IMG/VR virus record: IMGVR_UViG_2534681978_000010 | From: a virus | Lineage: Duplodnaviria > Heunggongvirae > Uroviricota > Caudoviricetes | Direction: 5' to 3' (one strand) | DNA: 8,200 bases | Part shown: positions 6,701-8,199 of the stretch, in pieces | Layout: each line of letters starts with the position of its first letter | Position numbering within the stretch: position 1 is the stretch's first letter | Program-made: the position numbers and the translations under genes | The notes under the pieces: model-generated | Databases searched by the model: none | Seen by the model: the letters and a program-made list of their open reading frames with translations, nothing else | Told to the model about the DNA's origin: nothing

Positions 6701-8199
6701 CGAACCATTTCACCCTCGAGTGTTTCCCCCTGGCGACCAGCGGCGTTTTCCGGTGCCGGAGCTTGTCCTTTCTGGAAACTCTGGCCCTTAACCTCACCGG
6801 TTGTGGTAAAACGACCACCACGTCCGGCCTGATTTTCATCCGGCGTACGCGCCACTTCTCCCGGTAACGGATATCCCTGTCCGGGATGAATATCGCCGGG
6901 AGCGGGCAGGCGCGGACGCTCAGTTAACTCCTGTGCTGTCGGACCGGCATCACCTTCAGCCATCTGTGAACGTACAAGCTCCTCCGCCGTCGGCGCGTTG
7001 CCACGGGCAAGGCGGGCCTGTACCTCCGTATCATCCCCCGTGAAACCACGGAATCGCGGGTCACGCATGAACGCGGGCTGCTCCATCGGGTCAGCATCAG
7101 CAATACGCTCTCTGTCAGCCAGGGTGTTAATGGTTTCCGTTGCCACATCTTCAGAGAACGCAGGATTATCCATTTCAACGGCATACTGATTCTCGCCTTT
7201 CTTCACTACGGACGGTTTCAGGCCGGTGGCGCCGGCATTACGGAAAACATCACTCCCCATGGCGCTTTTCTCATCCGTGAAATAACGGTTGTCCGGGCGC
7301 ACCTTCTCAATGCGTTCCGCTGGTCTGGACGCACCATTCCCGTTAATTTCAATGCGGACTTCATTCGGGTCCCGGAACCGCACCGTCGGGTAAATGCTCC
7401 CGTTACCATCCTCCGCATTTTCAGGCTGTGACTGTGCTTCCGGCGTCACTTCCTGTTGTGGGCGAATGACTTCTCGTATTGCCTGAAACTGTTGTTCTTC
7501 AGTCTCGGTGCGCCCCTCTTTCTGGCTGAGTCTGCGGTATTCCTCAAGCAGTTCAGAACGCGGCTTCGCCTTCAGCTCATTCATCACAGCCTGTCGCTTC
7601 GTCTGTTCGTCCAGTTCATTCAACAACTGGCTGGCAGCTTCCCGGCGATGAGCTGCGGATGCGTCACCCTCTGTTGCCATATCCGCATCAGCATACTGCT
7701 CCAGAAGCTGCTCGCGATTCATGCCCTGCATGGATTCACGCTGCTGCGCCACCGGATCAACAGATTCTGGTTGCGGGGCTGCGTCGTCCTGCTGCACGGT
7801 TTCAGCATCACGCATGGCGGTTTCTTCTGCGGCCTGACGTCTGCCACGATATCCGGCAACCGCACCGAATGGAGCCCCCATCGCAGCACCAAGGGCAGCA
7901 CCTTCGATCGTTGCGTCAGCCACGCCCTCCCATGGCGATACATCCATTCCGGCGGTCTCACGCAATGCCGTGTTTTCCTGATAGCGTGAATAGCCGCCCT
8001 GCGCCGCATTAATCGCCCCCTGTGCAGTGGCATTTCTGACAATGCCGCTTTTAACGGTCTTCGCTGTGCCTCGTGTCACCAGATTAAACAGTTGTGCGTC
8101 ACCCAGTTTTGCCGCCATGGCATTCACAGCCAGCAATTCAGGATCGGTTGCCAGCTGCGCGCGCACCTCATCGGCAACACGCTCTTTTGCCAGATCCAT
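745..8199 (-). CDS. Giant multi-domain protein (at least 2484 aa), cysteine-free, with two zincin-like HExxH motifs; candidate translocated polyvalent protein of a phage or conjugative element. 5' end at the window edge, possibly incomplete
   Basis: A 7.45-kb stop-free frame is overwhelming evidence of coding. Stop TAA is at 745-747 on the minus strand (C-terminus ...KKVGVD). The first ATG sits at 8199-8197, one nucleotide from the window end, so an upstream extension cannot be excluded. Functional call is inferred from composition and motif architecture, not from a database search. Confidence 0.92.
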   Translation of the reverse strand: MDLAKERVADEVRAQLATDPELLAVNAMAAKLGDAQLFNLVTRGTAKTVKSGIVRNATAQGAINAAQGGYSRYQENTALRETAGMDVSPWEGVADATIEGAALGAAMGAPFGAVAGYRGRRQAAEETAMRDAETVQQDDAAPQPESVDPVAQQRESMQGMNREQLLEQYADADMATEGDASAAHRREAASQLLNELDEQTKRQAVMNELKAKPRSELLEEYRRLSQKEGRTETEEQQFQAIREVIRPQQEVTPEAQSQPENAEDGNGSIYPTVRFRDPNEVRIEINGNGASRPAERIEKVRPDNRYFTDEKSAMGSDVFRNAGATGLKPSVVKKGENQYAVEMDNPAFSEDVATETINTLADRERIADADPMEQPAFMRDPRFRGFTGDDTEVQARLARGNAPTAEELVRSQMAEGDAGPTAQELTERPRLPAPGDIHPGQGYPLPGEVARTPDENQAGRGGRFTTTGEVKGQSFQKGQAPAPENAAGRQGETLEGEMVRRGLPSPDAQNATAPVREGLPAPDITHNVRMPQPDQLPRTVRNSLPELAQQAEVRRQAGGNRDIPQPETIAPESETTVSTDREATVRGGEVRGKKIEDFGEEIKGAAKHRYAQLAETLGKTLEDRDYATQPLSKLFPKPDYAKLASEGADADTLAMIALYRSDIPAKTKHNTAGWGESVKKVRHSVSEMLNGTVSAKRLAEWMEGRMPSRYADTWQLLRTLPPSQMDKASAYRVVSGVYQAAGGKRYDPPQKLYSLRNKDNKGTNLFFSESRDELLTKAKVWFAELEEKSQAKGDEKTAPSPDDKIRFDVYRNTRSGDIFIAYGKNKMRVRGGFKSASDARKYIDSHRDELVRHVKEMREISREEQRNATNRDRTGPERRKGDVSPEQFSDAFGFRGVQFGNYVEGPRRQADLNRAYDSLHDLAEVLNVPTKALSLNGRLGLAFGARGKGKAAAHYEPGEVAINLTKGNGPGALAHEWFHSLDNYFGRYDVSNDGKITSGGDFMTEAQRVRRIFKDGRYVDAEYPVRQEVYDAFKGVIQAIKNSDMPRRSVLLDEVRSKPYWSTDVEMAARAFERYVQDKARMAGVENDYLVNIRKAPEHNTDNTWAYPTNAELDGGIREAFDHLFRTLKTRETDKGVAFYSRKGVTRTPEGNLISDVNRSAEAKGSPVPQVEAVARGVMSGIKDSDLKVRVVKSQKEAEALAGELFDGYGRVHAFYRPDKREIVLVADNIPDGRTVREKLRHEIIHHAMEHVVTPAEYQTIIKTVLKTRDSDNVTIREAWRKVDASYGKESPEVQAGEFLAHMAEKQPNKFVAAWERVVALVKGVLRRTGLLKPTELNDIRLVRETIRTLGQRVREGYTPREDGAGASSQYSRSGKRDPFKVPEGEGERYRDDLARMMKSLRSTDLTVNIGRTPPVLRHLGAPDLPLVISRDTVRKATNGVKHVVPMDVIERLPELMHDPDAIYRSATERNAVVMLLDAVDKNGDPVVSAVHMKAVRSRLEINKVASVYGTENGKKLKSMEMTGLTLYRREKLSRDNLLHRGLQLPKGEHSYRGSVDKILYPEDIRKGPYYSRTSSLTPEETIASRFVRQMQDKFQVLKAVQENIRKTGGKVDDSNNAYMAEELFHGKAENDLNVMKERYVQPLAKLLADYKIAQADLDEYLYARHAPERNVHIAKINPKMPDGGSGMTNAEAAEIMQRVRNSGKQAQYDRLAGIIDDMLARRRELIREAGLEENGVVDAWQNAYRYYVPLKGQDVDGVVSLPRTGKGFTIGGRESRQAMGRASRAQSPSTQAIQDLSESLIRHRKNEVGNAFLKLVQDNPDKDYWQVFTDDRPDTMRVIAERKDQETGETIREVVERPVPMAMMADRYFTTKKDGKTYYIKLHDPRLMRAMKSMGPETSNAFVRTLGKVNRFLATVNTSYNPEFLVSNFIRDVQTAVMNLKAEQGRSDGKLKGLDNLSALAVVKDSRSAMSAVYASLRGKTLTGKGAQWQKVWKEFVEDGGKTGWFNMGDLEGQQKEMDRLVSLAKGGWKGQSIGAWHSFLNLVEDANGAVENALRLSAYKHARDAGLSRQQAASLAKNMTVNFNRRGEQGALMNSLYMFANASIQGTANLVRTLGHLNGDGPLLERLRWKNLNVPQKIVLAAVGAGYLLGSLNRSVAGEDDDGVNWYDKVPSHVKERNLVIMKSVFGGKAGEYWSIPLPYGYNVFFLLGHTAEGVAAGDLTASRAAGNVVGGVLGAFSPIGSETSETLSGALLKNAAPTILRPFANLSMNENFMGAQIYQENMPFGTPKPDSQLGRRSTPEAYKAFAFWLNAFSGGSQYRSGAVDITPESLKFWVDYISGGTGRFISKTTDAAVKSLNGIDIPEQQVPFLGKISGEVMPYVDQQKMYDRMTEVAQYHAELKSLTGAERTAFIDENNGKLLMNGLMQDTRKRLKDLRKQRDAIYADSSLSLAQQSAMVKSVERDMKVAVDRFNREYNKKVGVD
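1465..1797 (-). other. C-terminal hydrophobic/glycine-zipper segments (residues about 2135-2245: IVLAAVGAGYLLGSL; FFLLGHTAEGVAAG; AAGNVVGGVLGAFSPIG)
   Basis: Seen in the translation: two to three apolar stretches with G/A-x-x-x-G/A spacing, the only strongly hydrophobic segments in the C-terminal third. Confidence 0.5.
4420..4617 (-). other. Predicted zincin-like module 2 (residues about 1195-1260; HExxH = HEIIH at nt 4462-4476), with DUF4157-like local pattern
   Basis: Seen: GRVHAFYRPDKREIVLVADNIPDGRTVREKLRHEIIHHAMEHV. The pattern A-F-[TY] ... I-V-[FL] ... G-R ... L-x-H-E-[LI]-x-H-[VH] resembles what I recall of DUF4157-type zincin domains found at the N-termini of polymorphic toxins and eCIS effectors. 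Extra His/Glu after the motif (HHAMEH) could supply the third metal ligand. Confidence 0.45.
4810..5562 (-). other. Predicted zincin-like metallopeptidase module 1 (residues about 880-1130; HExxH = HEWFH at nt 5263-5277)
   Basis: Seen: ...AAHYEPGEVAINLTKGNGPGALAHEWFHSLDNYFGRYD. A beta-strand-like segment immediately followed by an HExxH helix is the layout of minimal zincins and of the MPTase domains described in polyvalent proteins. Domain limits are approximate. Confidence 0.5.
6280..7842 (-). other. About 520-residue acidic, E/Q/A/P/T/R-rich low-complexity region (residues 120-640), predicted intrinsically disordered; includes a Pro-rich repeated motif
   Basis: Seen in the translation: long runs such as EETAMRDAETVQQDDAAPQPESVDPVAQQRE, TETEEQQFQAIREVIRPQQEVTPEAQSQPENAEDG and RRGLPSPD...REGLPAPD, with very few hydrophobic or aromatic residues. 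Confidence 0.6.
7849..7914 (-). other. N-terminal Gly/Ala-rich hydrophobic segment (glycine-zipper-like; residues 96-117, ATIEGAALGAAMGAPFGAVAGY)
   Basis: Seen in the translation: small-residue G/A-x-x-x-G/A periodicity in a 22-residue apolar stretch, typical of membrane-inserting or oligomerising helices. Confidence 0.5.

What the first reader, a model, noticed from the sequence alone, without database searches (positions are those of the whole stretch)
7849..7914. N-terminal glycine-zipper hydrophobic segment
ATIEGAALGAAMGAPFGAVAGY is the only strongly apolar stretch in the first 640 residues. Glycine-zipper helices occur in channel-forming and membrane-inserting proteins, including phage ejection proteins and tape-measure proteins. 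With the C-terminal hydrophobic cluster it suggests the protein inserts into or spans an envelope membrane.
Basis: partly seen in the sequence, partly recalled or inferred. Interest (0 to 1): 0.5.

Follow-up and report, generated by a model that had tools for sequence, protein, structure and literature searches.

The report
Conserved glycine zipper in phage ejection protein

Summary
Window 7849-7914 (minus strand) encodes ATIEGAALGAAMGAPFGAVAGY, with five glycines at an exact spacing of four.

The word "N-terminal" comes from the window edge. The ORF is cut there, and the full protein has 2,793 residues (Sp5 ORF80, phi24B gp47). The segment is residues 405-426.

The protein is a giant polyvalent protein of short-tailed Stx phages. 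Published work shows it is essential, and a preprint finds it abundant in virions and proposes it as an ejection protein.

Across 71 homologues about 25-35% identical to the query, G413 and G417 are 99-100% conserved. The residues between the glycines vary, and detectable homology ends right after the zipper.

The roughly 430-residue module that the zipper closes is homologous to the N-terminal domain of N4 vRNAP gp50 (hhalign probability 98.5%, E 4e-15). That N4 domain is reported to bind lipid and to anchor the polymerase at the inner membrane.

The zipper fails simple hydropathy tests for a membrane helix in all 71 homologues. In N4, the predicted membrane helices map about 200 residues upstream of the zipper position.

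My best reading is a tight helix-packing motif inside a membrane-anchoring ejection module. Whether the zipper itself enters the membrane is unproven. This is a new member of a known kind and of moderate interest.

The parts
7849..7914 (-). Glycine-zipper segment ATIEGAALGAAMGAPFGAVAGY. It covers window-ORF residues 96-117, which are full-length residues 405-426. Glycines lie at full-length 409, 413, 417, 421 and 425.
   Evidence: Translation and motif scan. Conservation across 71 homologues: G413 99%, G417 100%, G421 85%, G425 75%. Small residues (G/A/S) at 410, 414, 418 and 422 in at least 85%.
7825..7923 (-). Predicted alpha-helix that contains the zipper (full-length residues 402-434).
   Evidence: AlphaFold2 on alignment A1: helix 402-434, with block pLDDT of 88, 75, 75 and 78. 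The whole model has pLDDT 74.2 and pTM 0.59.
7837..7848 (-). Basic flank RGRR immediately after the zipper.
   Evidence: R427 is present in 50 of 71 homologues.
7840..8199 (-). The last 120 residues (full-length 310-429) of the conserved N-terminal module, which resembles the N4 gp50 N-terminal domain. The first 309 residues lie beyond the window edge.
   Evidence: phrog_616 alignment 1-2484 to 310-2793. Full-length orthologue. Representative search. hhalign against N4 and Schitoviridae N-terminal domains: probability 98.5%, E 3.9e-15, residues 6-429 aligned to N4 33-448.
6280..7836 (-). Variable linker after the zipper, rich in charged residues, Pro and Gln (window-ORF residues 122-640).
   Evidence: 31% charged residues. 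Only 7 of 65 giant homologues match this region. Homologue alignments end at query residues 419-435.
745..8199 (-). Giant polyvalent protein gene, with 2,484 of about 2,793 codons inside the window. It is the orthologue of Sp5 ORF80/ECs1242, phi24B gp47 and Shigella phage 75/02 gp68.
   Evidence: Literature.
5527..5976 (-). LPD5 domain.
   Evidence: Pfam PF18799, E 7e-45.
5263..5277 (-). First HExxH motif (HEWFH), a zincin-like signature.
4807..5046 (-). LPD1 domain.
   Evidence: Pfam PF18796, E 9e-24.
4462..4476 (-). Second HExxH motif (HEIIH). The region around it is the most widely shared central domain among the homologues.
   Evidence: 48 of 65 giant homologues match window-ORF residues 1140-1400.
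3610..3879 (-). MuF_C domain.
   Evidence: Pfam PF18819, E 1e-17.
1084..1701 (-). LPD38 domain.
   Evidence: Pfam PF18857, E 5e-46. The Kyte-Doolittle 19-residue maximum of 1.35 falls at ORF residues 2140-2158. Zipper at 2229-2237.

Best explanation
The segment is the conserved glycine-zipper helix that closes a roughly 430-residue, all-helical N-terminal module of a giant polyvalent protein.

Per the literature, this protein is carried in the virion and proposed to be injected into the host. [quoted passage not shown] That N4 domain is reported to bind lipid and to be proposed, partly from work on the related phage DEV, to dock on the periplasmic-tunnel ejection protein gp51, keeping the giant protein tethered at the inner membrane.

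In the Stx-phage protein the same module is fused through a long charged linker to different cargo: LPD5, two zincin-like HExxH domains, LPD1, MuF_C and LPD38.

The zipper offers a broad face of Gly and Ala residues (positions i and i+1 in each turn of four) next to a face of Val, Leu, Ile and Met. Its most likely job is very close helix-helix packing. That packing would hold the anchor module together, or let several copies or partner ejection proteins bundle.

It is too polar to act as a stand-alone transmembrane helix. That suits a protein that must stay soluble in the cytoplasm and capsid and must pass through the tail. If the zipper enters the bilayer at all, it would do so only after ejection, as part of a bundle.

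Shown here: the motif, its conservation, its position at the module boundary, the homology to the N4 domain, and the low hydropathy. Taken from the literature: virion location and essentiality of this protein, and lipid binding of the N4 domain. Inferred: packing as the function, and any membrane contact by the zipper.
For: Motif and chance tests.

Conservation: 71 representatives at about 25-35% identity keep G413 (99%), G417 (100%), G421 (85%) and G425 (75%). Positions 410, 414, 418 and 422 stay small, and positions 411, 412, 416, 420 and 423 stay hydrophobic but variable. G413 and G417 are 2 of only 7 invariant columns of the module.

Module boundary: homologue alignments end at residues 419-435, and the downstream region is shared by only 7 of 65.

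Predicted helix 402-434.

Homology to the N4 gp50 N-terminal domain: probability 95.9%, E 5e-9 against the single sequence; probability 98.5%, E 3.9e-15 over 353 columns against a 9-phage Schitoviridae profile. Schitoviridae keep a shorter zipper, G-A-L-Y-G-x-G-x-A-G, at the aligned place, and their mutual alignments also end there.

BFVD Foldseek finds N-terminal pieces of other giant phage proteins, including two annotated as RNA polymerase fragments.

The same module heads proteins with other cargo, such as a methyltransferase with ddrB-ParB, or a Sno-type helicase with AcrIF11-like ART.

Low hydropathy: Kyte-Doolittle 19-residue mean 1.19 here, family median 1.11, maximum 1.49, and 0 of 71 at or above 1.6.

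Literature: ORF80 is essential and its mutant makes DNA-filled heads that show no tail-fibre antibody labelling. gp47 is abundant in virions but invisible by cryo-EM. The N4 N-terminal domain enters nanodiscs, and a gp51-NTD association and an inner-membrane anchor are proposed for it.
Against: No direct evidence shows what the zipper packs against. The AlphaFold model is only moderately confident (pTM 0.59), and its contacts could not be inspected.

Glycine zippers are classically a feature of membrane channels, so a membrane role cannot be excluded.

The N4 nanodisc result concerns the whole N-terminal domain and does not say which segment is embedded.

The hydropathy scales I applied are crude, and no trained TM predictor was available.
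Confidence: 0.5

Rival explanations
1. After ejection the zipper itself spans the cytoplasmic (or outer) membrane. Several copies would pack through their glycine faces into a pore or anchor, as in glycine-zipper channel formers. They might do so together with the small glycine-zipper protein encoded two genes upstream.
For: The motif is a perfect period-4 glycine stripe flanked by E408 on one side and R427-G-R-R on the other, with 18 uncharged residues between them.

The homologous N4 domain inserts into nanodiscs.

A conserved 77-86-aa protein with a more hydrophobic C-terminal glycine zipper (Kyte-Doolittle up to 1.69) lies in the same cassette in 6 of 9 lineages examined. A 'bacteriocin homolog', probably this protein, was detected in phi24B virions.
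Against: The Kyte-Doolittle 19-residue mean stays below 1.6 in 71 of 71 homologues. The Hessa simple sum has a median of +7.3 kcal/mol.

In N4 the predicted membrane helices are residues 224-278, which align with residues about 181-240 here and not with the zipper.

The zipper contains a Pro and, in the family, frequent Thr, Ser and Asn.
Confidence: 0.3
2. The zipper marks a processing or recognition site at the boundary between the anchor module and the cargo. One example would be cleavage by the protein's own zincin-like domains, which would release the cargo from the anchor.
For: The zipper lies exactly where the conserved module ends and a variable linker begins. It is followed by a basic RGRR. 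Polyvalent proteins are proposed to be cut into units by their metallopeptidase domains (Iyer et al. 2017).
Against: N4 vRNAP is packaged unprocessed, and its N-terminal domain stays attached. A strict period-4 glycine pattern with variable intervening residues is a helix-packing signature, not a protease site. No proteomic evidence of cleavage was found.
Confidence: 0.1
3. The segment is a compositional accident or a flexible Gly/Ala-rich hinge with no specific role.
For: The protein is rich in Gly (8.1%) and Ala (10.3%). The match to Pfam Gly-zipper models is far below threshold.
Against: G413 and G417 are invariant across 71 clusters at 25-35% identity while their neighbours vary. Local shuffles give 11 of 20,000. 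The segment is predicted to be helical, not a loop. The motif is also kept in Schitoviridae.
Confidence: 0.05

Closest known systems
Phage N4 virion RNA polymerase gp50, N-terminal domain (residues 1-906; Nat Commun 2026, PMC13434306)
   Same: The sequences are homologous over gp50 residues 33-448 (probability 98.5%, E 3.9e-15). Both modules sit at the N-terminus of a giant protein found in the virion. Both are followed by a low-complexity linker. Both have a small-residue zipper at the same aligned position.
   Different: The cargo differs: this protein has no RNA polymerase domain. The N4 zipper is shorter (GxxxGxxxA plus extra G, with Tyr and Phe). The N4 domain continues for about 460 more residues. 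Lipid binding is shown only for N4.
Sp5 ORF80 (ECs1242), phi24B gp47 and Shigella phage 75/02 gp68
   Same: These are the same gene, with 96-98% DNA identity. The protein is 2,793-2,811 aa, essential for infectious particles, and present in virions.
   Different: None of these papers mention the glycine zipper or the link to the N4 N-terminal domain. The 75/02 copy has L to F and F to S changes between the glycines.
Large polyvalent proteins of phages (Iyer, Burroughs, Anand, de Souza, Aravind 2017)
   Same: The protein carries LPD5, LPD1, MuF_C, LPD38 and two HExxH domains in one polypeptide, and it is encoded among virion genes.
   Different: Neither that survey nor Pfam defines this N-terminal module or its zipper as a domain. 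There is no Pfam or NCBIfam hit on residues 1-435.
Internal-core and ejection proteins of T7 (gp14/15/16) and N4 (gp52/51/50)
   Same: The working logic is the same: a small membrane protein, a mid-sized protein and a giant protein are encoded in a row. For T7 and N4 all three are shown to be carried in the capsid and expelled to bridge the envelope. Here that is reported or proposed only for the giant protein. The gene order here is about 83 aa, about 421 aa, then 2,793 aa.
   Different: The 421-aa protein shows no detectable sequence similarity to N4 gp51. The roles of the Stx-phage proteins are inferred, not shown.
Transmembrane glycine zippers (GxxxGxxxG; Kim et al. 2005) and the Pfam Gly-zipper families
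   Same: The period-4 glycine stripe lies on a predicted helix.
   Different: The segment falls below the hydropathy of a membrane helix. It scores 9.8 bits against a cut-off of 28.9 for PF13441.

Membership tests
Glycine-zipper motif (GxxxGxxxG) | At least three Gly at positions i, i+4 and i+8 | tested here: met
   Five Gly at period 4, conserved in homologues.
Glycine-zipper motif (GxxxGxxxG) | The motif lies in an alpha-helix | tested here: met
   AlphaFold2 predicts helix 402-434 with pLDDT 75-88. This is a prediction only.
Transmembrane helix (classical) | A stretch of about 19 residues hydrophobic enough to partition into the bilayer (Kyte-Doolittle mean at least 1.6, or octanol or biological-scale free energy at or below 0) | tested here: not met
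   Kyte-Doolittle mean 1.19, Wimley-White sum +7.8, Hessa sum +7.5. 0 of 71 homologues reach 1.6. TMHMM and DeepTMHMM were not available.
Pfam Gly-zipper families (PF13441, PF13436, PF13488, PF05433) | Score at or above the gathering threshold | tested here: not met
   PF13441 scores 9.8 bits against a cut-off of 28.9. PF13436 scores 7.7 against 27.
N4 gp50 N-terminal-domain-like anchor module | Significant sequence homology to the gp50 N-terminal domain | tested here: met
   hhalign probability 95.9%, E 5e-9. Probability 98.5%, E 3.9e-15 over 353 columns.
N4 gp50 N-terminal-domain-like anchor module | Located at the N-terminus of a giant virion protein and followed by a flexible linker | tested here: met
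   Virion presence comes from the literature.
N4 gp50 N-terminal-domain-like anchor module | Binds lipid or inserts into nanodiscs, and localises to the membrane during infection | not testable with these tools
   Shown for N4 only.
N4-like virion RNA polymerase | Single-subunit RNA polymerase domain | tested here: not met
   Pfam finds only LPD5, LPD1, MuF_C and LPD38.
Large polyvalent protein (Iyer et al. 2017) | Several effector or LPD domains in one polypeptide, encoded among virion genes | tested here: met
Tape-measure protein | Encoded in the tail module of a long-tailed phage and matching TMP families | tested here: not met
   No TMP Pfam or PHROG hit for the giant protein. The phage is short-tailed (abstract, abstract).

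The most novel reading that the evidence does not exclude
The invariant glycine zipper is the oligomerisation and membrane-insertion element of an uncurated 'ejectosome anchor' domain. That domain is shared by N4-type virion RNA polymerases and by the giant polyvalent proteins of Stx-type, Vibrio and Aeromonas podophages. After ejection the zipper would bundle with the conserved 80-residue glycine-zipper protein of the same cassette to form the inner-membrane end of the DNA conduit.
Probability: 0.2. Interest if true: 0.6.

Novelty: new member of a known kind. Interest (0 to 1): 0.4.

Why it matters
Short-tailed Stx phages spread Shiga toxin genes, and how they get their DNA across the envelope is unknown.

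Linking the N-terminus of their 2,793-residue virion protein to the N4 vRNAP anchor domain has two uses. It turns a 'hypothetical giant protein' into one with a testable delivery module. It also points to two invariant glycines (G413 and G417) as clean mutational handles.

The result also suggests that one common chassis carries very different cargo into cells, including RNA polymerase, methyltransferases, helicases and anti-CRISPR-like enzymes. That is useful for annotating many giant phage proteins.

The finding is incremental rather than surprising. The protein, its ejection role and glycine zippers are all already described.

Tried and rejected
- PDB sequence search with the module profile gave no hit.
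- Foldseek against the PDB gave only insignificant matches, with TM-scores below 0.2. All were helical transporters, which reflects composition rather than fold.
- Pfam and NCBIfam on residues 1-435 gave nothing meaningful.
- The search for related loci with the module alignment failed because no stretch was conserved enough.
- The word-indexed protein searches were swamped. One returned only close E. coli and Salmonella fragments. The other, with the N4 domain as query, returned only three hits.
- BLASTP of the 421-aa upstream protein against N4 gp51 showed no similarity.
- One Pfam call failed on a protein longer than 5,000 aa.
- The tape-measure idea was rejected: the phage is short-tailed and there are no TMP hits.
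- The overlapping ORFs on either strand at 7456-8042 were rejected as mechanical, because the giant ORF is supported by homology along its whole length.
- I did not implement the position-dependent Hessa/von Heijne predictor, because I could not vouch for its parameters from memory.
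Full report
**What is in the window**

The window is 96-98% identical to the late region of short-tailed Shiga-toxin phages such as Sp5/VT2-Sakai, 933W-type phages and Shigella phage 75/02. Almost all of it (745-8199, minus strand) is one ORF of 2,484 codons. That ORF is cut by the window edge.

In the annotated relatives the gene encodes 2,793 aa (2,806 aa as annotated in VT2-Sakai). The PHROG profile aligns window-ORF residues 1-2484 to positions 310-2793. The window's first ATG is the internal Met of ...RQKMDLAKERV....

Pfam finds LPD5, LPD1, MuF_C and LPD38, and there are two HExxH motifs. This is therefore a 'large polyvalent protein' in the sense of Iyer et al. 2017.

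**The observation**

window:7849-7914 (minus strand) translates exactly to ATIEGAALGAAMGAPFGAVAGY. This is window-ORF residues 96-117 and full-length residues 405-426. Five glycines lie at a strict spacing of four.

Chance alone rarely produces this:
- 147 of 20,000 whole-protein shuffles give five G at period 4.
- 11 of 20,000 shuffles of the local 40 residues do so.

The segment is not 'N-terminal', and it is only moderately apolar:
- The Kyte-Doolittle 19-residue mean is 1.19.
- The Wimley-White octanol sum is +7.8.
- The Hessa simple sum is +7.5 kcal/mol.

No 19-residue window anywhere in the 2,793-residue protein reaches the classical 1.6 threshold. The maximum, 1.38, is at residues 181-199, outside this window.

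**Conservation**

I ran an exhaustive HMMER search with the first 435 residues of a 94%-identical orthologue (P0020). It found 100 cluster representatives. About 65 of these are giant proteins of 1,000-5,500 aa that carry the matching region at their own N-terminus. Nearly all alignments end at query residues 419-435, which is at the zipper.

In a MAFFT alignment of 71 N-termini, most of them 25-35% identical to the query, the pattern is clear:

| Position | Conservation |
|---|---|
| G413 | 99% |
| G417 | 100% |
| G421 | 85% |
| G425 | 75% |
| 409 / 410 | Gly in 48% / 59% |
| 410, 414, 418, 422 | small (G/A/S) in at least 85% |
| 411, 412, 416, 420, 423 | hydrophobic but variable |
| R427 | follows in 70% |

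G413 and G417 are two of only seven invariant columns of the module. Salmonella relatives at about 60% identity show the same picture. Downstream of the zipper, only 7 of 65 giant homologues resemble the Stx-phage linker. That linker is 31% charged.

The zipper is therefore a selected feature that marks the end of a conserved module.

**What the module is**

Pfam, NCBIfam and PDB sequence searches return nothing for residues 1-435.

AlphaFold2 with a 31-sequence alignment gives an all-helical model (pLDDT 74, pTM 0.59). The zipper sits inside helix 402-434.

Foldseek against the PDB is uninformative. Against BFVD it finds the N-terminal pieces of other giant phage proteins. These include a 'large polyvalent protein' and two 'RNA polymerase (fragment)' entries from podoviruses.

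That lead was tested directly:
- The family profile aligns to the N-terminus of N4 vRNAP gp50 with probability 95.9% and E 5e-9.
- Against a profile of nine Schitoviridae N-termini it aligns with probability 98.5% and E 3.9e-15. The alignment is collinear over residues 6-429 here and 33-448 in N4.

The N4 branch keeps a shorter small-residue zipper at the aligned place (N4 residues 424-439, AGLGALYGFGSAGVV; consensus G-A-L-Y-G-x-G-x-A-G). Schitoviridae alignments also stop there.

**What is known about the relatives**

Sp5 ORF80 is essential. Its deletion gives DNA-filled heads that lack tail-fibre labelling.

A 2026 preprint on phi24B finds the orthologue gp47 abundant in the virion proteome but absent from the cryo-EM map. 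It proposes gp47 as an encapsidated ejection protein.

A 2026 paper on N4 describes the gp50 N-terminal domain as lipid-binding. The isolated domain enters nanodiscs. In the authors' model, supported by data on the related phage DEV, it associates with the periplasmic-tunnel protein gp51 and holds the polymerase at the inner membrane. The predicted membrane-spanning helices are at residues 224-278.

In my alignment those N4 residues correspond to about 181-240 of the Stx-phage protein. That is the most hydrophobic stretch of the protein, it lies outside the window, and it is not the zipper.

**Context**

The same N-terminal module heads proteins with different cargo:
- a methyltransferase plus ddrB-ParB plus LPD39 (P0104);
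- a Sno-type helicase plus AcrIF11-like ADP-ribosyltransferase plus LPD38 (P0083).

The upstream gene cassette is conserved from Stx phages to Aeromonas, Vibrio and metagenomic phages. Its order is about 120 aa, about 200 aa, about 125-148 aa, about 77-86 aa, about 420-500 aa, then the giant gene.

The 77-86-aa protein has a conserved MGYGLLD start and a C-terminal glycine zipper that is more hydrophobic (Kyte-Doolittle up to 1.69). It is present in 6 of 9 lineages examined. It is annotated 'bacteriocin'. A 'bacteriocin homolog' was detected in phi24B virions but set aside as a contaminant.

This order mirrors N4 gp52-gp51-gp50 and T7 gp14-gp15-gp16. However, the 421-aa protein shows no sequence similarity to N4 gp51.

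**Interpretation**

The most economical reading is that the zipper is a tight helix-packing element. It would complete, or oligomerise, an N4-type anchor module of an injected giant protein.

Its pattern is a broad Gly/Ala face beside a hydrophobic face, and the small residues are strictly conserved while the others vary. By established knowledge of GxxxG and glycine-zipper motifs, this is what close helix-helix contact requires.

Its hydropathy is too low for a stand-alone membrane helix in every homologue. That fits a protein that must be soluble before ejection.

By homology the module as a whole probably associates with the inner membrane. Whether the zipper itself is buried in lipid is open.

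I give about 0.5 to packing without independent membrane spanning.

**Novelty and score**

The protein, its polyvalent nature and its proposed ejection role are published, and glycine zippers are a known motif.

As far as the papers I read go, three things are not described:
- the family-wide invariance of this zipper;
- its position as the end of a defined N-terminal module;
- the homology of that module to the N4 vRNAP N-terminal domain.

That makes it a new member of a known kind. It is useful for annotation and for designing mutants, but not surprising. Interest is 0.4.

Noticed in passing
window 8197-8199 (minus strand) and beyond the window edge: The giant ORF is truncated by the window. 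Its apparent start codon is the internal Met310 of a 2,793-aa protein, so every 'N-terminal' coordinate from the first stage is shifted by 309 residues.
   Followed up: yes
L001:14237-14488 (minus strand; outside the window, two genes upstream of the giant gene): An 83-aa protein annotated 'bacteriocin' has a C-terminal glycine zipper (NIGTGIGTGAAIGASVGGPVGAVAGAVIGGIAGSLF). It is conserved with an MGYGLLD start in Aeromonas and two metagenomic phages; the Vibrio and one metagenomic copy keep only the C-terminal zipper. A 'bacteriocin homolog' was detected in phi24B virions and dismissed as a contaminant, but it is more likely a structural or ejection component.
   Followed up: partly
full-length residues 181-199 (outside the window; L001 gp68): The most hydrophobic stretch of the whole protein is AVWVAKGVNLIGALVPDMV, with a Kyte-Doolittle mean of 1.38. 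It aligns with the region of N4 gp50 (residues 224-278) predicted to span the membrane. It is a better membrane-contact candidate than the zipper.
   Followed up: partly
window 1084-1782 (minus strand): The C-terminal LPD38 region holds the other hydrophobic cluster (Kyte-Doolittle maximum 1.35) and a short GxxxGxxxG (GNVVGGVLG). It also stays below the TM threshold. The C-terminal roughly 480 residues are strongly conserved at the extreme C-terminus of only 8 of 65 giant homologues by phmmer.
   Followed up: partly
window 4462-4476 and 5263-5277 (minus strand): There are two HExxH motifs (HEIIH and HEWFH). The region around the second is shared by 48 of 65 homologues. The phi24B preprint calls MuF_C a metallopeptidase that might cut peptidoglycan. 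Iyer et al. instead describe MuF-C as a PBECR (RNase-like) domain, with the HExxH domains being the peptidases.
   Followed up: no
window 23-343 (plus strand): This 106-aa ORF has a DUF551 domain (E 1e-21). Its first 30 residues match the C-terminal end of a dATP/dGTP pyrophosphohydrolase model (E 1.6e-7), which suggests a fusion or a remnant.
   Followed up: no
L008:3112-11342: In one metagenomic lineage the giant gene (1,990 aa; LPD23, MuF_C, LPD38) follows directly after a portal-like gene. None of the small-protein cassette lies between them.
   Followed up: no
L005:7001-19150 and L006:7001-20998: Homologues with the same N-terminal module carry an AcrIF11-like ADP-ribosyltransferase plus a Sno-type helicase, or a methyltransferase plus ddrB-ParB. 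This implies a common delivery chassis for varied anti-defence cargo.
   Followed up: partly
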